Positions 9,081-34,500 of a stretch of DNA of 37,925 nt are shown one piece after another. The notes beneath the pieces are model-generated. The model saw only the letters and a program-made list of their open reading frames with translations. It ran no database searches and had not been told where the DNA came from. The stretch is from Rozella allomycis CSF55. Lineage: Eukaryota. The stretch covers positions 1-37,925 of the forward strand of contig KE561025.1 in assembly GCA_000442015.1 (NCBI GenBank). The letters are read 5' to 3'. The translations under genes were made by a program, and so were the position numbers. Positions within the stretch are counted from its first letter, which is position 1; each line of letters opens with the position of its first letter.

Positions 9081-9157
9081 CTGATGTTAGAAAATTCGGG
9101 AAGGATATTTATTTTTGGAAACCAAATCCACTTTAAATATTAAACAAGGAAATAGTT

Positions 9158-11394
9158 TTATTTATACATAGCTTCTTCTAACGTGAGAAATCCTTCGCCT
9201 TTGCACATATTACTCATGGATTCATCTGAACGATCTAACAATCTTCTTAATTCTTCTTCACTTAACACTTGGCGAATATCTCTGTCGCCCTTTTGAATCA
9301 CCAATTTTTCGTTATCTTCAGCAGCCAATATCTGCGCCAATTCACCTAAAGAAGTTTGTTTTGGTCGAAATAGATGATCTCCTTTGAATCTCCCAGATTC
9401 TATCACAACCTTTTCCAACTTTCTTTTTGAACTTGCTGTTTCAATTATGTGGTGCTCAATTGATCTTGCAATGGCAAACCGAAATACTAGTACAGGTTTA
9501 GTTTGACCTATTCTATGCGCTCTATCTTGGGCCTGTAAATCCATTTGAGGATTCCAATCCGAATCGAAAATAATGACTGTATCTGCGCTTGTTAAATTAA
9601 TCCCTAACCCACCTGACCTTGTACTTAATAAGAAAATGCGTTTTGAAGAATCCGGATTATTAAACTCATTTATCTATTTTTTGATTATTTAAAGATTACC
9701 TCAGATTGCCTTTCCTTTTGACTAATTGTGCCATCAATCCTACAAAAATCGAAATTTCGCAAGTTGCAAAATTCTTCCAACAAGTCTAGCATTTTTGTCA
9801 TTTGGGAGAAAATTAGGACTTTATGGCCTTCTTGTTTAAATAACTCTTTCAGAATTTGGTCTAATAGAAGCATTTTCCCAGATGACATCACCAATCGTTC
9901 ATCAATGACTACTTCACCGTTTTCATCTTCAGGAATATCAAACAAATAAGGATGATCACATATTTTACGCAATTGAACGATTCTGTTTTGAAGCTTTAAG
10001 TTTTTAACTTCTAAAAGTGACGATAAAGGATTTCTTTTACTCTTGTCTAAAATCGGTTCATTTTCTTTGGATTCATCATCAGAAATAATTAAATGTTGCT
10101 GATTTTGGAAATATTCAAAATGAAGAAAACATATTTTTTTTACCTACATGAGACATTCTTCCTCTCTTTCGCCTCTTGTTTGGCTTGGCCTCTGAATCAT
10201 TGTCTCCAAAGTAGAGTTCTATGTCTAAAATATCATTTTCTGGTTTATCTCTTTCAGATTGAATCAATTCTCTCAAATCTTTATTCAAAATTGCATCATA
10301 ATATTCCTTTTGCTTCATTGTCATTGGGGCCAAAACTAAATATTCTTTCTTCTTTGGCATTTCTACCTCAACTTTAAAAATTTCTAAAATTTTGAATTTA
10401 CCATCAGATTTTAGGCGCCTCAGAAGAAATGGCTTTAAAACGGAATGAAGTTTGGAAACAATTGAATTTTCTTCCTCTTGAGAAATAATTTCTTCGTTTT
10501 CTTTATTTTCAAAATCAAACCTATAAAATACCAAAAGATAGAAATACCAAGACTGAAAAGATTGCAAATCATTGAAAACATCAGGCAACAAAAAGTTTAA
10601 CAAACTCCAAAGTTCTGACAAGTTATTTTGAAGTGGGGTTCCAGTAATTAACAAACGGTTATCAGAGTTTAGAGACTTCAATTCTCGAAACAATTTACAT
10701 TTATAATTCTTTAATCTGTGCCCTTCATCCACCACGAGATATTTCCAGACAGTTTTTTGCAAATATTTTCTATCATTCATTGCTATATCATATGACGTTA
10801 TAACCACTGGACAAGCCTTTTTCTTTTTCTCAAATCGTTTTCTTAGTTGGTTTCTTTCTCCTATATCTCCATGATAAACACATGTTGGAATAGTTGGTGC
10901 AAATCTGATTTAAACATATTGATTTTCTTACTTTTTAAATTCAGCTTCCCAATTGGCTATTGTTGATAATGGTGCAACTATTAAAAACGGACTTTAAAAT
11001 ATAACGATTAGTTTTTACCCTTTGACACCCTTTTCCCATAGGTATGCAATTAAAGAAATTGTTTGAATAGTTTTCCCAAGTCCCTTTAAACTTGATAAGA
11101 GTATTTTACCATCTCATCCGCAAGAATTCCATTTAATGCATTTTCCCACAATGAAATTAACCATTGCACACCCTTTATTTGATAATCTCTCAAAGTTCCT
11201 GCGAAAATACTGGGCTGTGAAAATTCTTCTCTTTCTTTAGAATCACTGCCGTCGGTATTCTATGCATATATGAAAAAAGATATGATAACCTTTTCTAAAA
11301 TGTCAGCTAAGAATTTAGAATATATCGAAGAACGTTCAATAACTACATTTAATGTCTCAAGCTTGCTCTTTTCATTTTCGCCGTCGACTGACAT
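9158..11394 (-). CDS. HELLS: SNF2-family chromatin remodeller HELLS/LSH/DDM1/IRC5 (9 exons)
   Basis: N-terminal [59 protein letters not shown] and [17 protein letters not shown] motifs. Confidence 0.92.
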
Positions 11395-11555
11395 TAAAAA
11401 CAAGAGGCTTGGTTTTCAGTGTTTCTAAATATATTATCCTGTGCGATGTTTATAATTCAATTTATGTAATTTCGTTTATATGTCGCTCAATTGATTCTAG
11501 AGTTTAGTACAATCTACAGCGCCACCTTCTGACCTTGATAACTGTCAAAATATAT

Positions 11556-12263
11556 ATGAGTTCTACTACAGCACCACCGCCTGTCAATCGACGCAATAAA
11601 CCCAATATAAATGTCATCAAAGCGAATAAAAATTATAAGCCAATAAATGCCGGAGAGTTAGAGATTTATGAAGGAGATATTCTTTGTGTAATAGATAACA
11701 GCAGTAATCAGCAATACTGGACATGTAAATGCGGTTCAAATATTGGTCTTGTTCCTGTATCTTATAGTAAAATGACTTGTTTTTGAAAATTAAAGTGCAC
11801 GAAGAGGCAGAAATGATTGAAAATCCTATGCATGAAGCCGCAAAGAGATGCAATTTTGAATTGGTAGAGGACTATATCAATATTGGCTTGTCTGTAAATG
11901 CATTAGACAAAAGTGGGTGTACCCCACTTCATTGGGCGTGTAGGTCCGGTTACAAAGATATCGTACAACTTTTGTTGTCTAATGGCTGTTTGCCAAACAC
12001 ACAAGTAAAAATTATAATACCATGTTAAGTTGAATAAAATGGGTGATACTCCTCTCCACTTGGCATCATATGGCGGTCATTCTGAAATTGCAAAGATCCT
12101 ATTACAATGTACCGACATTAATACAGAAACTCTAAACAATGAAGGAAAAACAGCTTTAGAGCTCGCGAAAAATGATTCTGTCGGGGCCATTATTCAAAAG
12201 CATGTAATGTCATTTAACCGTGAAGATTTAAATGAAAATGAGGAGCAATCAGACTTTGATTAA
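11556..12263 (+). CDS. OSTF1: Osteoclast-stimulating factor 1 homologue (Pro-rich, SH3, ankyrin repeats, acidic tail)
   Basis: PPP N-terminus, SH3 (EL...EGDIL..W..GLVP.SY), ENPMHEAAKR, VNALDKSGCTPLHWAC, NKMGDTPLH and a C-terminal EEQSD. Two introns. Confidence 0.88.
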
Positions 12264-12269
12264 ATAAAT

Positions 12270-13005
12270 TTATTTGCGTTTCCAGATTCCCAATTTCTCT
12301 TTGCCTTTTCTTTTCTCAAAGCTTTCGCAGTCTGTAAGACTTATCAAGACAAAATTCTCTTCAAGTAGTTGCTTGTAACTATAAAATAAATTCCCTTTAG
12401 TTTTACATTTCAATTGATAACGAGAATGGCGGACCACCTTCGTGATCAGACAAGGGATACATCAGCGTTACAAGTAACCCACTGGGTTTAATTAAAGAAC
12501 CCATTCTGGAAGCCCATTGATTTCTAAAACTCGGATCTAACGCACATAGAAATGTGTAATCAAAAACTACGTCAGCAGGATTTGGCAAGGAAAGTTCAAA
12601 AAAGTCGGCGGCAATAAATTCCAGTTCATTATTCGAAATAGCCAACGAATTTTGCCTCTAATTAGTATCGTTATATAATATTTCTACTTTTCTATTTTCC
12701 TCTATTATTGGTTCGTACAAATCAATGCCATAAATTTTTCGCTTCCCGTTTACCAGTTCAAAGCAATCCAAGGCCAATGAAATAAATAATTAATTATTAC
12801 TTGACCGCATCCTGGAACAACAAAAGTACCACTCTCGGGAAGGACATTTTGCTTTAAAAGGTCTATCAATGCAGGTGCCGCACTTGACATGTTCCATGGT
12901 GTTATTTGATTATCCCACATTACCTTCCAGGCTGAATAAAGTCAATGACGTATCATTACCTTCTTTAGGGCCATGTTTATCATGAATTTCTTTAATGCTA
13001 CTCAT
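12270..13005 (-). CDS. TPMT-family thiol/halide methyltransferase (HOL1-like; 5 exons)
   Basis: W...W...TPW, VVPGCG, ADFF, FDYTFLCAL.P..R..WA and GGPPF motifs. Confidence 0.9.
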
Positions 13006-13158
13006 TGATCAATACCTTGAAATTCAGAAATTGTCCAAAAGTAGTCCAAATAATAAAATGTGGAAAATTTGTAAAAGAATGATTAATTATCCATTTATTT
13101 AACTGAAATAGTGTGAGATTCCTGTCATGTTCCATTTTGTTGTTTGTGGCTGGGTGCA

Positions 13159-15070: not shown

Positions 15071-15097
15071 ATAAAATGTTTGAAAATGAATGTTTAT

Positions 15098-15730
15098 TTA
15101 GTATCCATATTGAGAAAGTTCTGATTGAACGTTTGAAATTTCTGCTTGCTTGTTGACAGCAGCCTTCTTCTTCAAAGCAAGAAGAGCCTTCTTGCGTTCG
15201 TAGAATGCCTTGGATTTTGTCTTTCTCTTTTCTTCCAAAGTCTTGACAACTTCTTGGTATTTCCATCCATATTCTTGTGAGAGTCTAGAGAGAACACAGA
15301 ATTTGCGACCAGGCTTCAAACGGAGAACACGGAGAGCATCTGGGACAACAACTCTCTTGACTTTATCATATGGGGATGGAACTCCTTCAAATACTTTCAT
15401 ACGTTCCAAAGCAGCTGCTCCACGAGCAGTCTTGTGTGGAATCATACCGCGAACAACTCTCCAGAATATTCTGCTTGGTGCGCGGAAGTGAAATGGACCA
15501 CGGGATGGATTTACAACGCAACGTTTTCTAACAAATTCTGCATACTTTAATTTGTTGCGGAAAAAGGATCCAGAAATGTTGATTTCTTCACAACGAACAA
15601 CAACAACTTTTTGACCTTTCAAAAGTTGTTTGGCAACAATAGATGCAAGACGTCCAAGCAAATGGCCTTTGCCGTCAATAATAACAGTCTCGTTAAATTA
15701 CTACACTCTATTTACCTTTTCAAAAGTCAT
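15098..15730 (-). CDS. RPL16: 60S ribosomal protein uL13 (L16/L13a)
   Basis: Spliced [21 protein letters not shown] and [12 protein letters not shown]. One 27-nt intron ending GAG. Confidence 0.98.
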
Positions 15731-15820
15731 TCCTTTTTGCAGGGGTTTTTCGAAAAAATAAAAATTTTCCAAAGAAAATTCAGAAATTTCATTTACACTT
15801 TAATGGAGTAGAACTAATGT

Positions 15821-18652: not shown

Positions 18653-18950
18653 TGGTTAAAGTGGTCGATATTTCGTAAACAAAAACAAAAGGTTTAATAA
18701 ATACGATTATTCAAATAACTGTATATATTTAAAATATAAAAAAAATGGTAAAGCCTTGTTGGATTTGTTTTTTTGGTACTTGTCTTAGAGATCTGTACAA
18801 GAACAGTGAATTTGGGTAGCTTAATTTTGATAATAATGAAATGATTAGTCCCCATTTAAAACTTAAAACGTGAAATAAGTCAAAATAAGTGAGAAAGAAT
18901 GTTCAATAGTTTTTGGAGAGATTTAAAAACAGGTAGCTTTAATAATTTAT

Positions 18951-19841
18951 TCAATGCGACATTAATTTATACTTTCCTTCATGTCCAGTTTTGGTTACTT
19001 TTTTGCATTTCAAAAGAATAAACATTATAGATCTGACCATAGTTTCATCTAAGTTGTAACAAGTGGTTCTATTTACCAATCCCTGAAAACACATCACCCG
19101 GCAAAAATTCAGTAGTAAGAGGGAAGTTCACGCCACAGAGAATTCCATTCAATGTCTAAATTTGTAACATAATTAAAAAATTACTGATAATGATATCAAA
19201 TCTTTCAAATAATCGTCAATATCATTATACATGCTATTCGAAACTTCGATTTGTGTATGCCTCTGATCAATATTTGTAGTTAATTCTAAATCAAGATCTA
19301 GAGTCTTAGAGGAGACAGAGGTTAGGGTTTCACGTGATTTTAAAATAGCCAAAGAATGACTAGAAAGGCCTAGAGAATCAAGTCTCAAGGATCCCTCTGA
19401 GAAATCGGAACCATCGGAATCGAAACAAACAGAATTGTTTTGAACGGATTCTACAATCTCATCTTGAAAAGCTTTTTCATCATCATCTTGGATACATTTA
19501 TACTCATCAAATGGCTTATATCCATACGGTTTTAGATTGCTTTCAATTCCATCAAGGGTATCGTCGATATCCTTGCACTTTACGGACATGTTTTCATACA
19601 TTTCTTTAAATGTCTTTCTTCCAGTGCTTCCACTTAATATATCAATTTCAACCTTTTTTTCGTGTTCGTCAAGTAACTTTTCAAAAAGCCTCAAGCATGA
19701 TTGAGGTCGACTTAAGTTTTCCTCTTGCTCGACCAGAAATTGGCATTTTTCATTGAGCTTCTGTATTTTCTTTATATATTCAAAATAAGCTTCATCAAAT
19801 TCAGCTTCTAGATTGTCAATGAAACTCAAACCACCAAGCAT
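18951..19841 (-). CDS. SKA3: Ska3-like kinetochore protein (3 exons)
   Basis: N-terminal coiled coil ending LKPYGYKP, central LRLDSLGLS motif, and a C-terminal winged-helix-like domain reached through 29- and 28-nt introns. Recognised from memory of Ska3 motifs. Confidence 0.65.
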
Positions 19842-19877
19842 GCAAAGCCACAGTTCTCAGTGTGAGCTTTCATAAAA

Positions 19878-20898
19878 ATGTTTGGAAGTTCCAAATTTGA
19901 TCAAGAAGACTTTAACTTTCACAGATACCTTTTGGATTTGCCTTTATCCAAGGAACATGTATCTTTTAAAAATGCACCAGGAGGAAATAATGTAGGGTAC
20001 ATTGAAGGTTGGAGATCAATAAAATTGGCAAACGATATCTTTGGATTTAATGGCTGGTCCTCATCTATATTAGATTTAACTGTTGACTTTGTAATTGAAT
20101 TGATTCCGTCCAATTCTTAGATTGATGAAAAGGAGGGAAAATTCTCTGTTGGAGTATCTTGCCTTGTGCGCATATTTCTAAAGGATGGATCTTTTCATGA
20201 TGTAATATCGGAAACTTTAAACTAATTAGGATATTGGATACGGAAATGCTGAAAATATGAGATCCAAAGGTTTGGCCATCGAAAAGGCCAAGAAAGAAGC
20301 ATGCACAGACGCTGTAAAGAGATGCCTGAGAAATTTCGGTCAATCATTAGGAAATTGTTTGTATGATAAATCCTACGCTAGCATGATAAAAAGACCACAA
20401 AATAATAAGGGGTCAACGGAAGAGATGTTTACATCAGCTGATAATGCCAAAATAAAACGACCAAAGATAAATGAAAATATTAAAATTGACGCGAATGAAA
20501 AACCAAGGCTTGTTGATATTCCGACTATAGAAAACTCACATTTAAGGAAACTGTCGAAGCCATTAGAAAATACTACTCCTCTAGAATCAAAAAAGCAAGA
20601 TGCTAGATTTGCTTCAAGTGTAATTGGGTCAACAGAGAATCCTGTCCCAATCAGACTTGAAAACAAACCAATTCCGACCTATGAGAGCAAAAGAAGCATA
20701 ATAACTAATGGTTCGCCTAACGCGGAAAAAATGAGATATCCTCCAATAACTAATGATTCGCCTAACGCGGAAAAAATGAGATATCCTCCACCTGCATTAA
20801 AGTCAAATGCTTACGCTTCCTTGGAAAGTGTCAATGAATTTCATGTAAGCACATACAAATCATTTCCTGTTAATCCTACAACTCCTAGAAGGCCTTGA
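19878..20898 (+). CDS. RAD52: DNA repair protein Rad52 (3 exons)
   Basis: YIEGW...LANDIFGFNGWSSSI, LKDGSFH.DIGYG and EKAKKEACTDAVKRCLRNFG..LGNCLYDK motifs. Introns at 20091-20120 and 20202-20229. Confidence 0.95.
20701..20790 (+). repeat. 45-bp tandem duplication in the RAD52 tail (ITNxSPNAEKMRYPP x2)
   Basis: 20701-20745 and 20746-20790 differ at one base. Confidence 0.95.
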
Positions 20899-21013
20899 CG
20901 ATAATTACATCATATAATTAAAGTTTAGAGAGGCTCCACAATAAATAAATAAAGAATGTTATCAATTAATTTTTATTTTGCAATAAATACGTCGGAGATT
21001 TTGTTGATTGGGA

Positions 21014-21502
21014 ATGCTGTTGCATACTTTAACCTATTTAATCTCAATAATCGGAGTAGCTTTTTCAAAGGTCTATTTAACTATTGAAGCCTCAAATTAT
21101 GAGCCCTCGTCCACTGTTGAAATACCTGGGAACATAAAGACAACTTTTGTCCTTGACCAAGGAGCGTGCAGAAAGTCGAATTCTAAATTTGATGTTTCAC
21201 TTACATGGAATTATCCACCAAAGAATGGTGAATTGCATTTCTATGAAAACCAAGAAAAGAAGAAACGAGGTGAACCTTTTGCAATTGTCAAAGCACTTGA
21301 AACTACGTATATGCTTCCTCCTATTTGCGAATTAAAGAATGAAGAGCATAATGAATATGTTGTTAAAGTAAAGAAACCTGCGAATAGCATATTCCTTGGA
21401 GCTCAGTCTGTAATTGACTTTAAGTTTGAAGAAACGGAAACCAAAAAGAAGGTAATTTATTTCAAAGAAGGTAGTGCGTCTGGGTATAGGGGAAATAAAT
21501 AA
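21014..21502 (+). CDS. Hypothetical secreted protein, about 162 aa
   Basis: Signal-peptide-like MLLHTLTYLISIIGVAFS, intronless, beta-rich, with two Cys. Confidence 0.7.
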   Translation: MLLHTLTYLISIIGVAFSKVYLTIEASNYEPSSTVEIPGNIKTTFVLDQGACRKSNSKFDVSLTWNYPPKNGELHFYENQEKKKRGEPFAIVKALETTYMLPPICELKNEEHNEYVVKVKKPANSIFLGAQSVIDFKFEETETKKKVIYFKEGSASGYRGNK

Positions 21503-21522
21503 AAATGATTAATTGAATTTTC

Positions 21523-23619
21523 ATGAATTTCTTTGCACAACTTGCCAGCCAATTTACATCGCCATCAAAGACTATACAGCCGACTAATACCACTGTAGTA
21601 TTAAGCAAATTTCATAGAATATGGGATTTTATTTATAAATCGCTGTCGGTTGAATTAAGAAACAAAAACAATGTGATTCTTCACCACACCGATATACCTG
21701 CAAATTTTAGGGCTATTGTGGATATTTTGGTAGAGGAAGAAGCTAGAACAGATGTAGGGTCGACAGGGATTTGTATGGAATACCTTTTGAAGAATAATAT
21801 TCTGCAGCAACTTTTTGACATGTCTGAAAGAGATGTTCCAGAAGGAGTTTTAGGAGAAACAGTTAGATTGTTTACATCATTGATTGAAAATCTAAATGAT
21901 AAATTTTTGGTTCATTTGAATATTCATAGACCTACATTGCAATTGTTAAGCAAATGTGTTGAAGATCAAAAAATATCAATGAGATATGAAGATGAACTTG
22001 TAGAGCTTGTATTTTCAATATGTAATCGAATTCATTCATTTCCAGAACTTTTAACAATATTTTATAACGATTTGGATAGGAGAAGTAAATCGCAATCTAT
22101 TGAAAATTTAAATTCTAATAATTCAATGTATGGCGAGAATGAGTTTTTGCTTTTTTCATATTTGATGAGATTTATTTCTTCCGATGGTAAAAATGGTGAT
22201 TATGCACGAACGGGGATTCTTTTAATTTTGTCATTAAAAGTTTCTTCTGTGCAGAAATTTGTGATTAATTGCAGCGATTTATGTTCTCAAGTTAGTTTTC
22301 ATTTGCATGGACTTTTTGCTCAGCTCCCTAAAACAATTGACTATGAAATTGATTTATCAATGGAAGGATCAAGATTGAATTTAAATGATGAAGAAAGTTT
22401 CACGCAATTAGAAAAATCTGACAAAAATCTTTTGCTTTCTTTTTTAAATTTGTTGGATTTTGCTCAAAATATTTTAATTAAATCAAAATCATCTTTAATT
22501 TCTGAATTGTTGTGCGAATCAATTTCAGAAAACTTTTTAGAGAAAAATATGACGCCTTCATTTTTGCATTCCTCAGATTCAGATGGAACTTATTTATTAA
22601 TGGTTTATTATTCATTTCATATTGTTAAATTTGTTCATGAGGATAGTTTGTCTGAATTGTTCATCAACTATTTTCTTAAACGCGGGCCAGATTATTCTTC
22701 AAAAGGATGGTCAAAAATTGAATCTACTGATCTAAAAACTGTTGGGCTTCAACCTTTCTTCATCTCTAAACTGCAGAGTTCTACTGATATTGCAATTATT
22801 ACTCTCAAATTCTTATCTACCATGATCAAACTTCATTCTCCCTACGCACTCCCATTATTAATAAATGGATTAGTCGAGAACAAGGATGTTGTCAACGGTA
22901 CACCATTTTTATACCCAAGGTCATTCCATTTTTCTGTTTGTAAAGCCCTTGCAAACTTGCTAAATCCTGAAACTTTAGAAATGGGATATGATTCTCATGT
23001 CAGTGAAGCAAATTCTTCTATCGCTTTTCATTTGCAAAGAATAGCCCAAAAAGAAATTTCAGACACAAACACGCTGCCAAGCCAGGGTATATCATTCCTT
23101 CATCATCATCTTTCTTTCAGCAGAGAACTATCAAAAGAAGATTTAAAGTCTAGGTATGACATGTTAAAAAGAAGTAGTTGCACTCTCAATTCCTCGCCCT
23201 TTATAAATTCTATCCTCGATCAATTCAGCAAATTTTGGATGAAAAGCTCACAATTTAATACAGCACTAATTGATTTAATCGTAGAGCTTATATCTTGCCC
23301 TGAACCTTTGGTGTACATCGCTCTAATTGCTGGTTTTGAACAACATCAAAAATGCTTAATCCAGATTTTAAATACTTTGTTCAAAAGTCAATTGCCTCCT
23401 TTAGTAAATGGAGATAAAATATATGCTAAAAGTATTCAGGATTTATCTGCCGCCATCAAAGAACTCTACATAACAGGTATATTTCCAAGCGAAGAGGAGT
23501 TGTCAAAATACTCGCCATTGGCCAGAAATGTTATATTACTAGAAGAATTTGTTAAAAGACTTTTTGCTACTTTTGAAGCTCACGGCTTAGGATTCTACTG
23601 CTTGCCCTTTTACGACTAG
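21523..23619 (+). CDS. FHIP/FAM160 (RAI16-like, FTS-Hook-interacting) protein
   Basis: IVDILVEEE...GICMEYLLKNNIL, LCxRI...PELL.IF, FLLFSYL, GDYARTGIL and C-terminal NVILLEEFVK.L.A motifs. Confidence 0.85.
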   Translation: MNFFAQLASQFTSPSKTIQPTNTTVVLSKFHRIWDFIYKSLSVELRNKNNVILHHTDIPANFRAIVDILVEEEARTDVGSTGICMEYLLKNNILQQLFDMSERDVPEGVLGETVRLFTSLIENLNDKFLVHLNIHRPTLQLLSKCVEDQKISMRYEDELVELVFSICNRIHSFPELLTIFYNDLDRRSKSQSIENLNSNNSMYGENEFLLFSYLMRFISSDGKNGDYARTGILLILSLKVSSVQKFVINCSDLCSQVSFHLHGLFAQLPKTIDYEIDLSMEGSRLNLNDEESFTQLEKSDKNLLLSFLNLLDFAQNILIKSKSSLISELLCESISENFLEKNMTPSFLHSSDSDGTYLLMVYYSFHIVKFVHEDSLSELFINYFLKRGPDYSSKGWSKIESTDLKTVGLQPFFISKLQSSTDIAIITLKFLSTMIKLHSPYALPLLINGLVENKDVVNGTPFLYPRSFHFSVCKALANLLNPETLEMGYDSHVSEANSSIAFHLQRIAQKEISDTNTLPSQGISFLHHHLSFSRELSKEDLKSRYDMLKRSSCTLNSSPFINSILDQFSKFWMKSSQFNTALIDLIVELISCPEPLVYIALIAGFEQHQKCLIQILNTLFKSQLPPLVNGDKIYAKSIQDLSAAIKELYITGIFPSEEELSKYSPLARNVILLEEFVKRLFATFEAHGLGFYCLPFYD

Positions 23620-23647
23620 TATAAATTGCATTAGAATATTTTATTAA

Positions 23648-24041
23648 TCAATTTGCTTCTTCAATCTTCTTTATCAATTTTTTATTCTTCGATCTCATTA
23701 ATTTTTTTAATTTATTGGGGTTTTTAATCTATCCAACTAGCAAAAATATATTACCACTTGATACACTGCGGACTTTTGAGCATTCGCTAATCGCCTTTCT
23801 TCACGCTCTTTCTTCTCTTGTAATATCCTTTGTTTTTCTTCTTCTTTTTCTTGCTTCTTAAGAGCTTCCAATGCCTTCATCTGTTTTAATCTCTGCTTTT
23901 CCTCCATTCTTTTTTCATACGCCGACAAGCCAGCACCAACTTTTTTATTATTACGCACAATTCTTTCAGTTCTATATTTTATTTATCAACTATTTACATC
24001 GGGGTTAAATCTTTCCACTTTCTTATTTTTCTGCTCGGCAT
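23648..24041 (-). CDS. CGR1: Cgr1/CCDC86-family rRNA-processing coiled-coil protein (3 exons)
   Basis: MPS..RKWK start, YEKRME..K..K.LE and RRLANAQKSAVYQVIKNPNKLKKL. Two 26-nt introns. Confidence 0.85.
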
Positions 24042-24065
24042 TTTCAAAATTTATGTTCAGCCACC

Positions 24066-24503
24066 ATGGAAAACGAACATTCTCATTTTCAAACTATAAC
24101 CCAGCATTTTCATGAAAATAATATACCTTCACTAGCTTCATATTATTGCTCAGTGTTCAGATCCAGAAACCCAGAAACAGATCTGACTGATATTTGTCAG
24201 TCGTGCTCATCTGTATTTGTCCCAAACCAAAACTGTAAATTCACAATAGAAAGAAAAATAAGAAAAAATGCCATGGTAGTCCTGAAAGAAAGAAAAGTGA
24301 AGAATTGGTGTACATATCTTTGCAACATTTGCAATAAAGCAACTCAAACACCTGCCTGGTATCCTCAAAGGCAGAAAAAGGAAGCAACAAAGAATGAAAA
24401 AGTCAAAAAGAAAAAGAAAAAGAAAAGCATTTTTGATACCGTTGAACAAAAACAGAAAGCAACTTCTCATTTGTCGCTACAGGATTTTTTGACTTCACTA
24501 TAG
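24066..24503 (+). CDS. Rpr2/Rpp21/Snm1-like zinc-binding RNase P/MRP subunit
   Basis: CQSC..VFVP..NC and CNIC pairs, Lys-rich tail and terminal LQDFLTSL. Confidence 0.75.
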   Translation: MENEHSHFQTITQHFHENNIPSLASYYCSVFRSRNPETDLTDICQSCSSVFVPNQNCKFTIERKIRKNAMVVLKERKVKNWCTYLCNICNKATQTPAWYPQRQKKEATKNEKVKKKKKKKSIFDTVEQKQKATSHLSLQDFLTSL

Positions 24504-24544
24504 ACGAGGCATGTATATTAAGAACAAATTATAAAAAGTTTATG

Positions 24545-25720
24545 TTAAACCATTTTCTTTAGTTTTCTTTGGGTCTGGGATATTTTCAAGCCAGTTTTAT
24601 CCACGCCAATTTCCAAATTAGACAGCATTTTGTTTTGAATATCTTTTATCAAACAATTAAATTACTTACCTAATTCTTGGCCAATGCTTGATCCGATTTC
24701 CTTTTGTTTTTGAACGATACTGAGCAATTGGTCCAGGTTTTCATCTTGTTTAACCATCATTTGTCTTTGTAATTGAACTAGCCCGCTGTCATCGTAATTT
24801 TTTGTTTCATTGGTTTCCTGCGCAACTCCAAATACTCTTCTCGGACTTGCACTAGTGGCTGAAAAGGCAACTTTTGACTGGATTCCATCAAATGTCGGTG
24901 GAATAGGTTTGGTATGAAGTACAATTTTTCCAAGCTTTTCTATTTCATAATTTAACTCGTGAAGTTTGTCTTGTCTTCTAGATAGTTCATCTTTTGTTCT
25001 AGTAAAGGTTTCTTCGTAATGTTACATGTTTGCATCGGTAGAGTCAAGACTTTTCTTCAATTGATCAACTTTCACTGTTACTTCAGTGAATAGTGATTTG
25101 GCCTGAGATGTTAATGCGTACGCTTCAGACACATTTTCTCCAATTTTATCTCTCTCTGGAATATTAAAATCGACAATGGGTTACTAAAAAGAAGTTGTCG
25201 GATATCCACTATACTTCTCTCTAATTTTCTGAATTCAGTGATCCAGTTTCCATGAGAAATCGAAGAGTTTAGTTCTATCTTGACAATTAATAAGATTCAT
25301 TACGAATACCCTATGATCTGGAATGTTGAAGAATTCTTTCACAATTCTATTAAACCAAAAATCTTCGTGAAAAGGCCCGTAGGTTTTTAAAAGGCCATCA
25401 CAATATGCTTCTAATTTGACCCTTCGCTCCATCAATGTTTGAGTTGATGGCTTCAACAAAGTTTTTCGTGGAAGCTCTCTAGGTATATGATACCCCATCT
25501 CTTTTATCTGTGAAATTTGAAGATAATGTGTACTTGAGAATCAAACGTAACAAAATCACTGAATCGACGTAATACCACCCAGTTTCGCAAGCTTGAGGAA
25601 ATGTTGATTTCAAATGCCTAAAAATCACTTAATTATTGTACTTACAGTGTATGTTTTCTCATTTTCATGAATCTCTTGATATTTGGGTATGATTATCGAC
25701 TCCACTATCGGTTGCCGCAT
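24545..25720 (-). CDS. VAM7: Vam7-like PX-domain Qc-SNARE (7 exons)
   Basis: PX domain (VLRRFSDF, LPRK, MERRVKLEAY), RRVFG..QET and a SNARE motif (QDENLDQL...QKEIG..IGQEL..QN). No transmembrane segment. Confidence 0.9.
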
Positions 25721-25746
25721 TTCTTAAATTTTCGAATATCTCGATA

Positions 25747-25890
25747 ATGGATCGAGTAGTCGAAGAGAAACTAGCAGAACAAGAAAAACTAAAACAACAG
25801 ATTTTGAGAATGCAAACAAAGTATCAAAAAATGCGAACAGCTTTCGGAAAAGAAATGCGAGACAAAGTCAATGTAAATAAGGAAACATAA
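25747..25890 (+). CDS. Small coiled-coil protein, about 47 aa (may splice to an alternative 3' end)
   Basis: MDRVVEEKLAEQEKLKQQILRMQTKYQKMRTAFGKEMRDKVN.. fills the gap between VAM7 (divergent) and ARO8 (convergent). Confidence 0.5.
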   Translation: MDRVVEEKLAEQEKLKQQILRMQTKYQKMRTAFGKEMRDKVNVNKET

Positions 25891-25950
25891 CCAAAGCTAC
25901 CCTGTCTTCATCAAAATTGCAGACTAATTAACTAACAAAATTATTTATTT

Positions 25951-27427
25951 CTATGTTTTGTTGGAACTTTTAATAATTTTGCCAAGTCTCAACAAAGCTG
26001 TATCGATCTCTTCTTCCGTCGCTGTAGAAAAGGCCGCCCTTAGGAAGGGTGATTTATCGCCATGTGGCATAAATTCCTATCACTTGAGTATTAGTTTTTT
26101 ACACGACCGGGTATGAATATTACCTTTTCTTGAATAGCCTTTTCTTTGACCAAGCTCTCACTGTCGACTATTCCTAGAATTTTCATCCATATGAACATCC
26201 CTTTATGTGTTTAAAAGTTGCTTGTACCACATTTCGGTTCATTGAAACTGACTAGATTACCTAAATGCCTCCTTGATGCCTCCAGAAAGAGGTTCTTTTT
26301 GGATTCATAATATTGACTCGTTTGTTTGCAATGATCAAGAAAACCATTATGACCCCAAGTTTTAAGTAGTTTCAGCAAAATTGATTGAGATATTCCGCAA
26401 GGATGAATATTAGAGCACTATAGACAATTTTTATCTTCCTTGGTTACTTCTTCATGTAATATTATTCTGTCTATCAATGCTTTTGGCCCCGACGCAAACC
26501 CAATTCTTGCCCCGGCAGACAAAATTTTGCTGAAAGAGTCAAAACGCAGTACCCGACCTGATTGATCAAGTGAGAAATAGCTTGGTATAAGATTGTTGTA
26601 GTTATACTATTAATACAACGCCATGAATAATACTTGTAGGTAATAGTAGGGATCATCTTCTATAATCAAAAAATCATACTCCTCTGCAAGTTTTAGCACT
26701 TCCAGCCTCTGTTGTAAATTTGTGGAGCAACCAGTTGGATTTCCGCCATTGGGTACTGTATAGAGTATCTTGGGCCTTCTTTGACTCGCATCCCAATTTG
26801 ATAGTTTCTCTTTAAGTGCATTAGGACAAATACCGTTCTTGTTTGTGTGAATTTCTATATTCACATAAACTTTATTCCTTTACCAACCATTCTACAACCT
26901 ATTGGTCTCAAGACAGCGAGAGTGCCGCTATAGGTCGGAGTTTCTAACAATACCGAGTCTTCGGAGGTCAAAAACATTTCAAAAGCCTATTAAAAGTGAT
27001 TTTACATATTGCCTTTGAAACTCCATCTTGACTTCCATTTGTCACACACATAGACCAATCATCTGATTTAGGCCGATGAAGTTGATTTTGAAGTTCACGG
27101 AGCCATTCTAAAAGCTCCATGTATCCCGCCAGAAAGGAATCAAAAGAATATTTTTACCGTGTTGGAATATTGTAATGCTCTCTTTGTTTCTGTTCTGTCT
27201 AGCTTTATGGTTTCCCCACTCTTTAAACTGAAAGATATCGAATCAATTGGGAACTTATTAGGATCCGGACTCCCTCCTCCCAGAGAAATCTGCGGAAAGA
27301 ACTCTTAATCGCTTACCATGCCTGGAATAAGGAGTAATGGTTGCAGTGCACGTATTGCGGATGGTTGCCTAAGTTTGGCAACGGAGTTTAAATATTTTGA
27401 ATAGTCGATCTTTCTTGAGATCATCAT
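25951..27427 (-). CDS. Class I PLP aminotransferase, ARO8/AADAT (aromatic/2-aminoadipate/kynurenine) type (9 exons)
   Basis: RQPSAIRAL, ISLGGG.P, ALQYS, NGSQDG, YTVPNGGNPTG, IEDDPYY, RFDSFSKILSAG.RIG and GMFIW motifs. Confidence 0.95.
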
Positions 27428-27579
27428 TTTGTTTTGGTTTTAATGAACTGTTTTAGATTTTTAGCCAATTTTGTAATATAATTACAGTTTATTATATAAT
27501 GAGCAATAAATGAATACATTTAACTGAAACATTGTAGGTTTAATTGGTTATTATGACTTAATATGAACTTGATCTTGAT

Positions 27580-28323
27580 ATGTGTTACTCTATTCGACTT
27601 TTATTCAACCTTTGCCTTTTTCCTAAGCCTTTCAGGTTCGAGTATTTCTTTTTCCTTGCATTCCTCAAGCAAAATATGAAAAGCTTTGGTATTCGTACTT
27701 ACTTGAGAAATGTGGTTTTCAGAATTATCTATCTTTAAAGCCACGATGTTACACTATATTTTATCATAAAATATCATTCTTACTTTTGTTATAAAATCTC
27801 TGGTGAAGCTTTTCGTGTTTCTGGTTGGCCACATGGCGATATTTCGGAATTTCAGTGCGCTTTGCAAGAGACTCAAACATTAAAAAAGAAAGTCTTTGTA
27901 GTTTGTAGTGTCAGAACTGAGAATTATATTCACCATTTAATTATGCTCATTGATGTTTTACAAGATTTACAATGTTATGAACTGGGTAACGATGCTGGAT
28001 ATTTACAATGCATTTGATATTTAGAGATAACAGATACTTTTTGAATTTCTTCTATCGGTTACAAACTTGTAGATAAGGTAGATGACAATAAGTTCCAGTT
28101 CAGTCAACTTACACTGAGGAAAGGAACGATAAACATTAAATTCTGTAATGAAACTTGAGTTTCCTGGAGTGCCTTTGAAACTTTGGATCTCGTGTTTTTA
28201 ATTATCAGCCATTCGGAAGGAGGCGAATGGAGAAACCCGCCAGACAAGCTAATTTTAGCTTAGCTAAATCGCACATGTCATTTTTATAATGAAATTCCAG
28301 TGTCACGTTATTTATTAATTTAA
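27580..28323 (+). pseudogene. Probable decayed coding sequence of unknown family
   Basis: Frame +1 reads as protein-like for about 245 codons with only five internal stops (27736, 28015, 28042, 28156, 28261). A minus-strand spliced model could not be completed. Confidence 0.35.
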
Positions 28324-28457
28324 ACCTCAAAATAGTTTATACTTTGGCTTATTGGGAATTACCTCCATAAATTGAATAACTGAAAAAAGGGAATATACGG
28401 TATGATGTAAGATATTTAATATGCGTTTGTTATTCAGATTGCTTTGGTTTATTTATG

Positions 28458-30457
28458 TTAAATATTGAGATTAACCACGACTTTTTTCTTCTTTGGCCTA
28501 TTAAAATGACTTAAATTCTCCTCTGGCTCTGTTGCAGTAAATTTAGATGTTAGTTCTTCTACTTCATTCGACTTTGACGTTTGTTGCAAAATGTCTAAAT
28601 TGATTAAGTTGCTATTAATGTTCGCATTATATTCTGAGTTTAGATATGAAGGCATGTCGAACATATTTTCGAGACTTAGCTGTTTCTTAATTGAATAGAT
28701 GAAGAATTGGGTAACCCAGTCACATGCTCGACTAAAATTCTTTTCCAGAGAAATAAGTATCAAGCTTTGAGTTTCGGAATCAATTTTCATGGATATTTTG
28801 GAGTAGACTTTTAAAGCATACAAGACTCCCTCCGTTTTCTTGATTGCTAAGCATGAAAATATGAAATCAACGGGATCTGCTAAATTCTCGTGATTAAATG
28901 AAAGAAACGACATCATATACTCTAATATGATGAAATTTTTTTCATTGCCAGAAATAATCAATGGACTATTTCGAATAACACTTATCTAAATCAAAATTTA
29001 ATTAATGATTTATACAAAAAGATTAATGTAATATTCAATATTGGAATAATCAATCATGCTCATCACAGATGATATCTTTTCTTTGATTTCAGACCCTAAA
29101 AGCATGTCTTGTAAAGAAACCGATGAAAAATTACCTTTGATCTCTGCTAGTTTGCATAAAGTAAAAATTTTGAATTTATCGTCGTGAATAAAATCCAAAA
29201 GAGACAAAATTTGGCGTCCGATTTGATTTGTTGTCGATGGACTTTGACCGTCCAACTTTTGCATAAAATGTTCGATGATTGTTTTTGAATTTGAAGGGTT
29301 GGAAACATAATAAATTAAATCAATTGCCATTAGTTTAATTGTTTCATCTTCATGATTCGTCAATTCAATGAGCCTGTGGAAAACTTTCATTTCTGAAGAG
29401 ACCAATCCTTTGTCATGTACAAATAACAATTTAAAATTTAGCAAACCAACGTAGATAAGGTTTGTATCATGATCAGAAATGAATTGCTCCAGTTTACGAA
29501 TAGAAACCTTGATTATCTTTGGGTCTGCAATACCAATTTTGAACACTGTTGCAATACATTCCACAACTAAAGAAACTGAAGCATGGTTGCAGATTAAATT
29601 TGTCAAGGGCTCTTCCAATTTCTTTATTAATCTTGTCTCTAATTTTGATAGCTTAGTAAGCTCTATAGAATAAACCATCTTTTTACTATTTTCATAATCT
29701 TTATTAATGCCCAACTTGGAGTTTGATTATCAATCAGGAAACTGAATAAAACGGGTACCATTGTCATGAAATGACTAGGTTTAACATCAACAAGTTCGCA
29801 AATTGTGTTTATCAAATTAATAATACCTTTCAATCATCAAAAAGCAAACATTATACCATTTTTCTCCTTGACTTTCTCTTTCAATGTCGGTAAAATTTGT
29901 TCTATCAATTGTTCATCTTCTTTGATTAAATAATACAATGCAGCTATGGCTTTTTTTCTTATTGTAAATTTTGTGTGGTTGAGCAATGAACAAACTTGTG
30001 AAACTATTTCAGTTATTATGTTGCGGTCTGCCCATGAACACACAGCATTGAGGGCCAACGACACTTCATTAGCATTTCCTGCTAAATCTTTTCGCAATAA
30101 ATTAACGGCCAAAATTAATATGTTTTGATTGCCGTAGAAACTTCTTTCAGATGCTATATATCCTTGTTTCTTAATCTGAAGATTGCAATGACTCATAACT
30201 TGAATTATGTCAAATAATGCCCAATCTAAATTGTAAAATTCTATCATTCGTAACTATTAATCTGCATTGATAAACCTTACATATGCAATCTTTAGAACAG
30301 CTGTTGCTTTAGTAGAAGTGTCAGTGCTCTTCAATTCGTTTCTTATTTCTTCGAATGACTTTTCAATATAAGCCCTCTCATATTCTTTATCTTTATTTAA
30401 CCTGAGTCCCCTAATTAACTCATTTAGATCTTTTTGAAATAATGCTGAGACTTTCAT
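28458..30457 (-). CDS. APL5: AP-3 complex delta subunit, divergent and short (5 exons)
   Basis: LFQKDLNELIRGLR, IRNELKS.D...KATAVLKIAY, W.LIKI.K, LETRLIKKL.EPL and FISD.D.NL.YVGL motifs. Confidence 0.9.
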
Positions 30458-31593: not shown

Positions 31594-34500
31594 ATGAGCA
31601 ACTTGACCTTAAAAATCAACTACCCTGAATCCAACATAACCAAAGCCCTCCAAGTACTACACTTGAAGTAAATTCACACAGTTTCCATCTGATTATTTTG
31701 TCAACGATTGCATCAAGGAGATCAAGGAGAAATTCAACGAAACCGATCTGAGCAATGATTACGGACTATACTGTGTTGGCCAGAAGAAATGGCTTGTAAA
31801 CAACAGGACACTAGCGTTTTATGATTTGAAAAATGGTGATATTTTAGAGTTTAAAAAGAAGCACCGGCCGATGCGCGTCAAGATGCTTGACAGCACACTC
31901 AAGACTGTATTGATTGATGAATCCTGCACTGTTAGCGAGCTTGTAAAGATTGTATGCAACAAGATTGGTAATCGCGTATAATTGGTTGTGTCTAGGGATA
32001 ACAGCATTTGAAGAATACTCATTCTGTGTTGAACTATCTAACGACGAAAGATCGACGCGCCAGAAGCACGAAAAATACGAGAGAAAAGAATACAGTAAAA
32101 AGGTATTTACGATTTGACAGCTAAATGGCTGAGCCCTGAAAAGACGCTTCGCGAGCAGCTGGTGCAAGATGCGGATGTGATAATCCTCAAGCGCAAGTTT
32201 TTCTTTTCTGACCAGAACATTGACCGGAACGATCCTATCCAGCTGAACTTGCTGTTTGTGCAATCCAAGGAGAGTGTGATTTCTGGCGAGTACCCATGTA
32301 GCGAGGAGGAGGCTGTGCAATTGGCGGCGTTGCAGGTGCAGGCAGTGTTTGGCAACTATGATGGTGATAAATGCAAGCCTGGGTTTCTCGAGTACGCATG
32401 ATGGTTGTTTCTTTCTAGGTTGAAGGACTATTTGCCCGAGGTGTATCGCCGAAAAGAGGTTGAAAAGAAGATTTATGGCGAGTATAAAAAGATATGCGGG
32501 ATGTCCGAGCTGAATGCAAAGTACCGGTATGTGCAGCAGTGCCGGTTGCTGCGAACGTATGGGGTGACGTTTTTCCAGGTCAAGGAGAAGCTGGCGAAGA
32601 AGACAAAGTTTACGCCTGCGTTGATGGGGGTTACAAAGGAGAATATACTGAGGGTTGATATCGAGAGCCGGGAGATATTGCAGGTGTGGCCGTTGACTAG
32701 TTTGAAAAGATGGGCTGCGACGCCTACGAGGTAAGAGATGGGATTTGTGTGGATTGTAGTTTTACGTTGGATTTTGGGGACTATGATGCGTGTTACCAGG
32801 TGGAGACACATGATGGGGAGGATATTTCACAGTTGATTGGGGGATATATTGATATGATTATTAGAAAGAAGAGGGAGAATGATAAGACTGGGGAGCTTGA
32901 AGGAGAGGAAATGGCAATGTATGAAGAGACGATAGAGATTGCGCAACCGTCTAGAGCTACGAATAACAATAGTTCGAGTGTGAAGAGACGAGCGGATGAA
33001 AAGGATGTTGCTGGAATTGCAAGTTTAGAAAATAGTGAAATGAAGTATTCGTCTTTGTCGATTTCAAAGGCTAAGCATAATTTGAAGTTTGTGAGTAATG
33101 AAGAAGAAAATAAGGGAATGGTTGAAGGAATTAATAAACAAGCATTGCAGTTGTTTATAGAGGATCAAATTAAGAGATGTGAAGAAGAGGAAGAAAATCT
33201 TTTAAAATTAGTTGATGAGGATATTTCTGAATTTGTGACTGAAGAATGGAAAGAGAGTGTGTATAAACTAAAGATGCATGAACTGGAGTATCGAATAAGC
33301 AATCAAATTGAATCAGTTTGTGGAATTTTAAATGAACTGAATCTAATGGAGCCGAATTATGAGACATTGAAGAATCAGATAGAGAGTATTTGTGATGAAT
33401 CATTGTTTAAGAGTATTGAAGCCAAAGTTGGTGTTGAAAAAGAATTTAGCCAAACTTTTGGTAATCTTTTAAATAGCACGAAAATATTTTTGAAAGAGAT
33501 TGAAGAGAATTTGAATGGAAAAAGTAATGGAGAGCAATTAAGGTTGGTGGCTGATGAGATTGGAGGGTTGAGTAGAGAATTAATATTAAAGAGAGAAGAG
33601 GAAATAGAATTTGGAGCGATTAATGAGATGATGGAGATGTTTGATAAAAGTTGTGAAAGGATGGAGAATAAAACGCCTGATTCTGGTAGAAAGGCAGAGA
33701 TTAAAGGAATAGCTAGTTTGTTGAAAGAGAGTGTTGAGAATTTTAAAACAATTTTGAATGTTTCAAGGGGATTTAATGAAAAGGAAGGAATTAAGAAGAG
33801 AGTTGAAGAGGGAATTGTTTTAGTTAACGATGGGATTGATTGTTGTTTGGAGAGGAATGTGATGAATAAAGAAACTTCAAATAGTTTAACAAGGGTCATA
33901 AATGATTTAACTTTAACAGAATCTACTAGTGAATCTATTGGTGAATCAAAGAAAGCATTAAAGAGAGGATCTAATGTTGAAGATGAAAATGAGAAAAGAT
34001 TGAAAATAAAATTGAATGAAATTTATGCATTGAGTAATCAAATTGGCACTTCAAATGATAAGAACTTTATCTACTTGTTGAAAGAGAAAACAATAAACTT
34101 TTCCAATGAATTGAAAGCATTTGGAATTGAAAAGGATGTATTTGAAAGAAACAGAATAAACTTTGTTTGTAAAAAGATTAATGAATTAATTGAAGAAATT
34201 GATGAAAAAGATTTTAGTAAATTTCAGAAACAATTTTCAAATTTGTTAATTTTTAATAAAGAAAAAGATTTGGTAAATTTGGTTGAAAAAATGATTGAAA
34301 ATATTCAAATTAATAAAAGAGATTTGAATGATTTTGAAAAAGTTTGTTTAATTAAAATGATAGAGTATGTTAAAGATGAAAATGTTGATGGGATTTTAAA
34401 AGAAAAGAATAATTTTATTGAAAATTTTAAAGATGAAAAAGATTTGAATAAAGATTTGAAATTGTTTGAAGAAATTTGTGAATTGATTGAGAATAATCAA

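What the first reader, a model, noticed from the sequence alone, without database searches (positions are those of the whole stretch)
27130..27157. GT-TG intron in the ARO8/AADAT gene: non-canonical 3' splice site
Seen: on the minus strand ...TAT TCC AAC ACG | gtaaaaatattcttttgattcctttctg | GCG GGA TAC... The 28-nt segment contains no AG and shifts the frame. Removing it gives ALQYSNTAGYMELLEWL, matching the family motif ALQYSxTxG..EL..WL. The next in-frame AG would make a 43-nt intron and delete the conserved Gly. The gene is otherwise intact. Established: TG acceptors are very rare in spliceosomal introns and are mostly described next to an AG. Inference: this spliceosome accepts YTG as a stand-alone acceptor. 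This is the clearest of four cases in the window.
Basis: partly seen in the sequence, partly recalled or inferred. Interest (0 to 1): 0.85.

Follow-up and report, generated by a model that had tools for sequence, protein, structure and literature searches.

The report
Tiny intron ending in TG
A 28-base intron in an amino-acid aminotransferase gene of the fungal parasite Rozella allomycis ends in TG instead of the near-universal AG, and two more introns nearby do the same, which suggests that this organism's splicing machinery tolerates TG ends, though no RNA data could be found to prove it.

Summary
The window is a Rozella allomycis CSF55 contig. On the minus strand, 27157..27130 is a 28-nt GTAAAA...TTTCTG segment with no AG. 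It lies between exons that match human KAT II/AADAT residues 34-75 and 78-123. Removing exactly these 28 nt gives ALQYSNT|AGYMELLEWL, gapless against 112 homologues.

Contigs of two read sets from different samples (word depth about 343 and 275) agree with the window here, so assembly error is very unlikely.

It is not isolated. Of 69 curated introns (22-31 nt), 65 are GT-AG, 1 is GC-AG and 3 are GT-TG. The other two are in a TPMT-like gene (strong homology support) and a HELLS-like helicase gene (moderate support). All three have pyrimidine-rich 3' tails.

No RNA run holds the locus, so splicing at TG is inferred, not shown. "Stand-alone" is also unproven. An AG lies 15-33 nt downstream of each TG, in frame in two of three. 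In humans, TG sites work only beside an AG.

Public gene models use only canonical sites and lose conserved residues.

Verdict: probably a real TG acceptor (about 0.65), a new variant of a known rarity.

The parts
27130..27157 (-). Intron 2 of the AADAT/ARO8-like gene: 28 nt, GTAAAA...CTG (GT-TG), no AG inside, 8 of 10 pyrimidines at positions -12..-3
   Evidence: Unchanged in contigs of runs X1 and X2.
27115..27129 (-). First 15 nt of exon 3, coding AGYME. This is the stretch that would be lost if the next AG (ending at 27115) were used, giving a 43-nt intron
   Evidence: Among 112 homologues, Gly is present in 108 and Glu in 104 at these columns.
27158..27289 (-). Exon 2 (44 aa, ISLGGG...ALQYSNT)
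   Evidence: residues 1-42 align to human KAT II (2qlr_A) residues 34-75, so the exon ends at chain residue 77.
27013..27129 (-). Exon 3 (39 aa, AGYMELLEWL...GSQDGVSK)
   Evidence: residues 1-39 align to 2qlr_A residues 78-123, directly contiguous with exon 2.
26987..27012 (-). Intron 3, 26 nt, GC-AG
   Evidence: It keeps GSQDGVSK|AFEMF as in homologues. The public model drops VSK to use a GT-AG site.
25951..27427 (-). Whole AADAT/ARO8-like gene: ATG at 27427, TAG at 25953-25951, 8 introns of 26-30 nt, 418 aa
   Evidence: The annotated protein P0001 comes from this contig.
12775..12800 (-). Second GT-TG intron (26 nt) in a TPMT-like methyltransferase gene. Joins ...VVPGCGQ to ALDCFELVNGKRKIYGIDL
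   Evidence: Unchanged in X1, X2 and the divergent X7 contig.
10116..10143 (-). Third, less certain GT-TG intron (28 nt) in a HELLS/LSH-like SNF2 helicase gene. The alternative is a 49-nt GT-AG intron, 10147..10099
   Evidence: Only the TG reading supplies the family's V-x-Y motif.

Best explanation
The 28 bases are a genuine ultra-short U2-type spliceosomal intron of the Rozella allomycis kynurenine/alpha-aminoadipate (ARO8-like) aminotransferase gene. Its 3' end is TG instead of AG.

Likely mechanism (inferred):
- The donor GTAAAA is the species' normal 5' site.
- The intron has the species' modal length (introns are 22-31 nt, mode 27), so the branch point sits only about 5-12 nt from the 3' end.
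- The second catalytic step takes the dinucleotide at that short fixed distance.
- A pyrimidine-rich tail (8 of 10) and a pyrimidine at -3 help recognition, and U at -2 is tolerated in place of A.
- Cutting at TG yields the conserved protein (ALQYSNT|AGYMELLEWL).
- The in-frame AG 15 nt downstream may serve as an auxiliary or fallback site, as in human TG-AG tandems.

TG acceptors seem to be a recurrent property of this genome: 3 of 69 curated introns in this window.

Shown: the sequence, its read support, exact homology contiguity and the recurrence. Inferred: that the RNA is actually cut at TG, and how.
For: 1. Exons 2 and 3 align to solved human KAT II at residues 34-75 and 78-123. Exon 2's last two residues fall at 76-77, so exactly the 28 nt must go.
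2. With the 28-nt removal the protein aligns without a gap to 112 homologues of 330-520 aa. The AGYME columns carry G in 108/112, E in 104/112 and the following L in 109/112. At most 3 homologues have a gap there.
3. Logan contigs of runs X1 (word depth about 343) and X2 (about 275), from different samples and studies, cover 27130-27157 with no difference.
4. The TPMT-like gene needs a 26-nt GT-TG intron. It gives VVPGCGQ|ALDCFELVNGKRKIYGIDLYEPII, which reads gapless against seven homologues, for example PGCGQGYDCFLLYNNKRNIVGVDLYEGVI. No AG lies between the donor and this exon. Pfam TPMT positions 5-48 end exactly at the Q.
5. In the HELLS-like gene the 28-nt GT-TG reading supplies V-E-Y. The V aligns with V in 57 (plus I in 10) and the Y with Y in 77 (plus F in 7) of 111 homologues, 19-20 of which are gapped there.
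6. Census: 69 curated introns, of which 65 are GT-AG, 1 is GC-AG and 3 are GT-TG. I met no other non-AG ending. All are 22-31 nt long, whereas AG-only readings would need 43, 59 and 49 nt.
7. The three TG introns have 8, 8 and 9 pyrimidines at -12..-3, against a mean of 5.38. Only 5 of 66 AG introns reach 8 (Mann-Whitney p=0.003; the test was chosen after I saw the pattern).
8. In the TPMT-like gene, both differences in the divergent X7 contig (12568, 12837) are synonymous.
Against: - There is no RNA evidence at all. No listed run that holds the stretch is on record as RNA, and all laid runs were DNA contigs.
- In humans TG 3' sites were never the sole site of an intron, and AG>TG mutations activated nearby AGs rather than the TG (PMC2374985, section 12).
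- In AADAT and the TPMT-like gene the next AG is in the same phase (+15, +33 nt). A gene surviving an acceptor mutation through a cryptic AG would look like this. By chance it would happen about 1 time in 9.
- AADAT and the TPMT-like gene may both be dispensable metabolic genes in an obligate parasite.
- The HELLS-like case also has a canonical in-frame reading (49 nt), which the public model uses.
- I made the census by hand-guided curation of a single 38-kb window. My automatic scans could not separate TG from other endings.
Confidence: 0.65

Rival explanations
1. The acceptor was AG and mutated to TG. The spliceosome is strictly AG-dependent and now uses the next AG, removing 43 nt and producing a protein that lacks AGYME, as in the public model. 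This product may be partly functional or dead.
For: - The next AG is in the same phase in AADAT (+15) and the TPMT-like gene (+33).
- Human AG>TG mutants behave this way (PMC2374985, section 12).
- The public protein P0001 is modelled this way.
Against: - The skipped 15 nt still encode the near-invariant Gly (108/112) and Glu (104/112) in frame.
- The 33 nt skipped in the TPMT-like gene still encode ALDCFELVNGK, matching homologues residue for residue.
- Three lesions of the same kind (A>T at -2) among 69 introns, with none of the other possible splice-site lesions, is unlikely for random decay.
- Introns of 43, 59 and 49 nt would be the only ones outside 22-31 nt.
- P0001 also departs from homologues at three other junctions. 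It adds FFPQ, drops VSK and drops VIFIPGR. So it is not evidence of real splicing.
Confidence: 0.25
2. The intron is not removed at all, or only rarely. The gene is a young pseudogene, or it is down-regulated by intron retention with a premature stop.
For: Retention shifts the frame into a stop. The parasite has a reduced metabolism (general knowledge, recalled).
Against: - The other seven introns and all exons are intact, giving a 418-aa ORF that aligns over its whole length.
- The same feature occurs in two further, otherwise intact genes.
- Both X7 variants in the TPMT-like gene are synonymous.
Confidence: 0.07
3. A sequencing or assembly error: the true base at 27131 gives AG.
For: The window does differ from both read sets at three bases elsewhere in the same gene (25940, 25955, 25966).
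Against: - X1 and X2 contigs, from two samples and two studies at word depths of about 343 and 275, show no difference at 27130-27157.
- The TPMT intron is identical in X1, X2 and X7, and the HELLS-like one in X1.
- Either run may be the source of the assembly, so they are independent of the assembler but not of the strain.
Confidence: 0.02

Closest known systems
Human TG-AG tandem 3' splice sites in U2-type introns (Szafranski et al. 2007, PMC2374985; also GNAS, TSPYL2 and ARS2, cited in PMC4176328 and PMC1557818)
   Same: - GT donor of normal strength.
- TG at the 3' end with a pyrimidine at -3.
- An AG a short way downstream (15 nt here; the human limit is 28 nt).
- Flanking sequence probably matters.
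   Different: - In humans TG is always the alternative partner of a used AG and never the sole site. It was found in 36 human genes, and about 0.01% of candidate TG motifs function.
- Here TG is the only end that gives the conserved protein.
- It sits at the species' standard intron length.
- It occurs in 3 of 69 curated introns.
- In the TPMT-like gene the AG is 33 nt away, beyond the human limit.
Ordinary ultra-short GT-AG introns of Rozella allomycis
   Same: Same GTAA donor, same length class (28 nt, within 22-31) and same AT-rich make-up. Short introns of about 30 nt in this species are in print (PMC6349667, passage seen).
   Different: The 3' dinucleotide is TG, and the 3' tail is markedly more pyrimidine-rich (8 of 10 against a mean of 5.4).
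Lineage-wide non-canonical splicing in tunicates (Oikopleura, Fritillaria), linked to divergent U2AF (PMC13326754; title and start of abstract seen in the listing)
   Same: Small genomes in which terminal intron dinucleotides have been relaxed across a lineage.
   Different: In the tunicates the change is in the great majority of introns (the abstract says 95% escape the GT/AG rule) and involves other dinucleotides. Here about 4% of introns are affected, only at position -2 of the acceptor. No spliceosome gene could be examined.
U12-type (minor) introns with non-canonical ends
   Same: Rare GT-TG ends are recorded among U12-type introns (1 in mouse; PMC1557818 Table 2).
   Different: The donor here is GTAAAAAT, not the U12 consensus (recalled as [A/G]TATCCTT), and 28 nt is far below any U12 intron I know of.

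Membership tests
U2-type spliceosomal intron | GT (or GC) at the 5' end with the species' donor consensus | tested here: met
   The donor is GTAAAA. Of the 69 curated introns, 46 start GTAA.
U2-type spliceosomal intron | AG at the 3' end | tested here: not met
   It ends CTG and has no AG anywhere inside. This missing feature is the finding itself.
U2-type spliceosomal intron | Length within the organism's intron length range | tested here: met
   28 nt. The range of the 69 curated introns is 22-31, with a mode of 27.
U2-type spliceosomal intron | Removal restores a continuous, conserved reading frame | tested here: met
   Contiguity 77|78 on human KAT II. Gapless against 112 homologues.
U2-type spliceosomal intron | Removed from the transcript at these exact borders | not testable with these tools
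   No RNA holder was listed. All laid runs were DNA contigs.
U12-type intron | Extended donor [A/G]TATCCTT and a matching branch-site box (consensus recalled, not from a call) | tested here: not met
   The donor is GTAAAAAT.
TG-AG tandem acceptor (Szafranski 2007) | TG with a pyrimidine at -3 and an AG within 28 nt downstream | tested here: met
   CTG, with the next AG ending 15 nt downstream. The criterion is from PMC2374985, section 12.
TG-AG tandem acceptor (Szafranski 2007) | Both the TG and the AG are used, giving alternative isoforms | not testable with these tools
   No RNA data.
Kynurenine/alpha-aminoadipate (KAT II / Aro8) aminotransferase, class I fold | Sequence similarity over the full length to characterised members | tested here: met
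   Single exons hit PDB KAT II at E=1e-5 to 4e-4. Exon 5 has 264 relatives named AADAT/Aro8. One exon gave only a weak Pfam Aminotran_1_2 hit (E=0.003, below the cut-off).

The most novel reading that the evidence does not exclude
Rozella allomycis has relaxed the AG rule. Its spliceosome routinely completes splicing at pyrimidine-TG when this lies at the fixed short distance set by its 22-31-nt introns and follows a strong pyrimidine tract. Under this reading, a few percent of all its introns are constitutive GT-TG introns, and the public proteome, built with canonical sites only, is wrong at each of them.
Probability: 0.5. Interest if true: 0.75.

Novelty: new variant of a known kind. Interest (0 to 1): 0.6.

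Why it matters
The AG at the end of introns is one of the most constant signals in eukaryotic genes. TG ends are known only as rare alternative partners of an AG in vertebrates.

A fungal-lineage parasite that uses TG as the productive end in several percent of its introns would be a natural system for two questions. How is the 3' site chosen in the second catalytic step? Which factors (the U2AF small subunit, Slu7, Prp18, Prp8) enforce AG?

It also has a practical side. In this window three public Rozella protein models (AADAT, TPMT-like, HELLS-like) lose conserved residues because gene finders allowed only canonical sites. The same error is likely elsewhere in this reference genome, which is widely used for early fungal and microsporidian comparisons.

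Tried and rejected
- Whole genome: none is held, so there is no genome-wide count and no look at spliceosome genes.
- RNA evidence: no RNA holder was listed. The one RNA run offered held next to none of the words. I laid four DNA runs instead. X5 and X7 do not cover AADAT intron 2.
- Automatic gene finding: I used a codon-score dynamic programme with free or alternative acceptors. It chained through non-coding DNA. TG (13 uses) was not enriched over AA, AT, TA or TT (20-24 uses), so this test says nothing either way. Its canonical output served only as a starting list and was corrected by hand in several places.
- Counting ORF-bridging GTA...NN segments by ending was not discriminating. With both flanks at least 20 codons, TG gave 139 and AG 153.
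- Pfam on single short exons: 3 of 5 gave nothing, including both AADAT exons and TPMT exon B. PDB search of TPMT exon B gave nothing.
- Relatives in metagenomes: 41 loci, best about 45% identity over long stretches. None is a close rozellid. L010 has no intron at this position.
- A GT-TG candidate at 21484-21515 rests only on the scans that proved non-discriminating. The upstream ORF ends in a stop and the next ORF has its own ATG, so these read as two genes. One at 11757-11785 is displaced by a canonical 29-nt intron that keeps the end of the SH3 domain.
- Literature: five full-text searches were run. Those naming Rozella were. None found a paper on Rozella splice-site usage. The 2013 genome paper is not held. 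Frey and Pucker 2020 has no mention of Rozella or GT-TG in its main text. Supplements are closed and might hold per-species tables.

Full report
**What the window is.** A search with one exon of the gene returned a 420-aa protein, 100% identical over that exon. It is named "PLP-dependent transferase [Rozella allomycis CSF55]" and its longest contig is 37,925 bases, the length of this window. Pfam scans of 229 stop-to-stop ORFs of at least 50 codons show a dense row of ordinary eukaryotic genes:
- MSS51-like
- cysteine dioxygenase
- ALG9-like mannosyltransferase
- myotubularin
- an SNF2 helicase
- SH3-ankyrin
- TPMT-like methyltransferase
- PP2A subunit A
- RPL13a
- phosphofructokinase
- Rad52
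- RAI16-like
- Cgr1
- the aminotransferase
- an adaptin
- talin

No whole genome is held.

**The observation.** On the minus strand the aminotransferase gene runs from the ATG at 27427 to the TAG at 25953-25951. Eight very short segments interrupt it: 27, 28, 26, 29, 27, 30, 27 and 26 nt. Six are GT-AG. The third is GC-AG (27012..26987). Removing the eight gives an uninterrupted 418-aa protein.

**Is the 28-nt removal required?** Three results say yes.
- Exon 2 alone (44 aa) matches solved human kynurenine/alpha-aminoadipate aminotransferase (2qlr_A) from its first residue. Residues 1-42 align to chain residues 34-75 (E=1.2e-5), so its last residue falls at 77.
- Exon 3 alone (39 aa) matches the same chain, residues 1-39 to 78-123 (E=3.7e-4). 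The two exons therefore abut at 77|78.
- In a MAFFT alignment with 112 homologues of 330-520 aa (115 rows in all: 114 of the 120 stored proteins, P0001 among them, plus my two readings), the junction ALQYSNT|AGYMELLEWL is gapless. The five residues after the junction fall on columns with A/S, G (108/112), I/V, P, E (104/112), followed by L (109/112). At most three homologues are gapped there.

The only AG-ended alternative is a 43-nt intron. It deletes AGYME.

**Is the T real?** Contigs of four public runs were laid on 9000-28999.
- A contig of X1 (20761-28999, word depth about 343) and one of X2 (25809-27509, about 275) cover the intron.
- They differ from the window only at 25940, 25955 and 25966.
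- X1 and X2 come from different samples and studies. Either may be the source of the assembly, so this rules out an assembler error rather than giving strain-independent proof.
- X5 and X7 do not cover the site.

**It is not alone.** The break points of a canonical-only gene model led to two more cases.

(a) TPMT-like gene.
- At 12800..12775 the sequence is GGTCAA|GTAATAATTAATTATTTATTTCATTG|GCCTTG (26 nt).
- Pfam TPMT positions 5-48 end exactly on the Q before it.
- The next exon reads ALDCFELVNGKRKIYGIDLYEPIIEENRK.
- Seven homologues read PGCGQGYDCFLLYNNKRNIVGVDLYEGVIKQN, PGCGQGLDAFYLSNDQRSVVGLDLYPKIVEEN and so on. The junction GCGQ|ALDCF is gapless against them. The Asp four residues after GCG is present in 6 of 7, with Glu in the seventh (read from the sequences printed).
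- No AG lies between the donor and this exon. The next AG would make a 59-nt intron and delete 11 conserved residues.

(b) HELLS/LSH-like helicase gene.
- At 10143..10116 lies GTAAAAAAAATATGTTTTCTTCATTTTG (28 nt).
- A canonical 49-nt reading from a GTAGGT donor also keeps the frame, and the public model uses it.
- Only the TG reading supplies V-E-Y. In an alignment with 111 homologues of at least 500 aa, the V column holds V in 57 and I in 10. The Y column holds Y in 77 and F in 7. Between 19 and 20 homologues are gapped.
- I rate (a) strong and (b) moderate.

**Census.**
- I curated the introns of 18 genes by combining the canonical model, Pfam coordinates and manual reading.
- The result is 69 introns: 65 GT-AG, 1 GC-AG and 3 GT-TG. 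Lengths are 22-31 nt with a mode of 27. The donor is GTAA in 46 and GTAT in 16.
- I met no other non-AG ending.
- Many of the 69 rest on ORF continuity and typical signals only. Genes without recognisable relatives cannot be checked.
- For scale, an RNA-backed annotation of Ganoderma lingzhi lists 22 GT-TG among about 92,000 introns, 0.024% (PMC11590231, Table 1, seen as a passage).

**A shared feature.** The three TG introns have 8, 8 and 9 pyrimidines at positions -12..-3 and a pyrimidine at -3. The 66 AG-ended introns average 5.38, and only 5 reach 8 (Mann-Whitney p=0.003). I chose this test after seeing the pattern, so it is a lead and not a proof. It does suggest that these introns form a class and are not random fresh lesions.

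**What the public models do.** All three annotated proteins avoid the TG.
- P0001 takes the 43-nt intron.
- P0121 skips the whole 29-residue exon.
- P0129 takes the 49-nt intron.
- P0001 also inserts FFPQ, drops VSK at the GC-AG intron and drops VIFIPGR, all against the homologues.

These models follow canonical-site rules and are not evidence about real splicing.

**What argues the other way.**
- There is no RNA evidence. No listed holder of the stretch is on record as RNA.
- Szafranski et al. (PMC2374985; abstract and section 12 read) found human TG acceptors only as alternatives to an AG within 28 nt, never as the sole site. They note that AG>TG mutations activated neighbouring AGs.
- Here an AG follows at +15 (AADAT), +33 (TPMT-like) and +17 nt (HELLS-like). 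In the first two it is in the same phase. A gene living on after an acceptor mutation would look like this.
- Against that rival, the skipped stretches still encode conserved residues in frame. Three identical lesions with no other kind would be odd for decay. Both differences that the divergent X7 contig shows in the TPMT-like gene are synonymous.
- A reading that fits everything is a TG-AG tandem in which TG, at the standard distance, gives the productive mRNA and the in-frame AG is a tolerated alternative.

**Mechanism (inferred).**
- With introns of 22-31 nt, the branch point can lie only a few bases from the 3' end. Site choice in the second step is then mostly a matter of distance.
- A U at -2 could still pair with the branch adenosine. 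This rests on my recollection of post-catalytic spliceosome structures and comes from no call.
- A strong pyrimidine tract may compensate at the early recognition step.
- I could not examine U2AF, Slu7, Prp18 or Prp8, because no genome is held and sequences from memory are not accepted.

**Comparison and novelty.**
- TG acceptors are known (human GNAS, TSPYL2, ARS2 and the 36 genes of Szafranski et al.; passages).
- Very short introns in R. allomycis are in print (about 30 nt, PMC6349667, passage).
- My five full-text searches, of which named Rozella, found nothing on splice-site usage in Rozella. The 2013 genome paper and all supplements could not be read.
- I therefore class this as a new variant of a known kind. 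The TG is the productive end, sits at the species' normal intron length, and is present at a percent-level frequency.

**Verdict.** My probabilities:
- TG is really used: about 0.65.
- Only the downstream AG is used: about 0.25.
- Retention or decay: about 0.07.
- Sequence error: about 0.02.

Interest is 0.6. The decisive experiment is simple (RT-PCR across three junctions), and a positive result would matter for the mechanism of 3' site choice and for the annotation of this reference genome.

Noticed in passing
window 26987-27012 (-): Intron 3 of the same gene is GC-AG (GCAATA...AATAG, 26 nt). Homologues require it (GSQDGVSK|AFEMF). The public model drops VSK to use a GT-AG site instead.
   Followed up: partly
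window 25940, 25955, 25966: The window differs from the contigs of both X1 and X2 at these three bases, all read as T on the + strand. Two of them change the last residues of the aminotransferase (S>R, T>K). The window may carry errors here.
   Followed up: partly
window 9000-24000 (run X7): X7, from the same sample as X1, holds contigs that differ from the window at roughly 0.2-1.5% of bases, depending on the piece. They also skip 45 nt (20699..20745) in the repetitive C-terminal part of the Rad52 gene. This looks like a second haplotype or strain.
   Followed up: no
window 18694-18746: A short stretch between the PFK gene and its neighbour has several-fold higher depth in all runs. Many contigs have loose ends there and one base is inserted (18712). 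It looks like a dispersed repeat or an assembly joint.
   Followed up: no
window 10521-10547 (-): A 27-nt GT-AG intron without a stop codon is read through in the public HELLS-like model, which has [15 protein letters not shown] where relatives suggest QSW|FDF.
   Followed up: partly
window 12658-12800 (-): The public TPMT-like model (P0121, 178 aa) joins GCGQ directly to RQNSL. It skips a 29-residue exon that all seven homologues have.
   Followed up: yes
window 32000-37000 (+): The talin gene has a GC-richer 5' part with strong GC skew (0.45 in 32001-34000). It then runs as a 1417-codon open frame that looks low in complexity, rich in N, S, K and E.
   Followed up: no
window 1715-1969 (-): An isolated weak match to the hAT transposase dimerisation domain (E=0.001, below the Pfam cut-off). 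It is possibly a transposon remnant.
   Followed up: no
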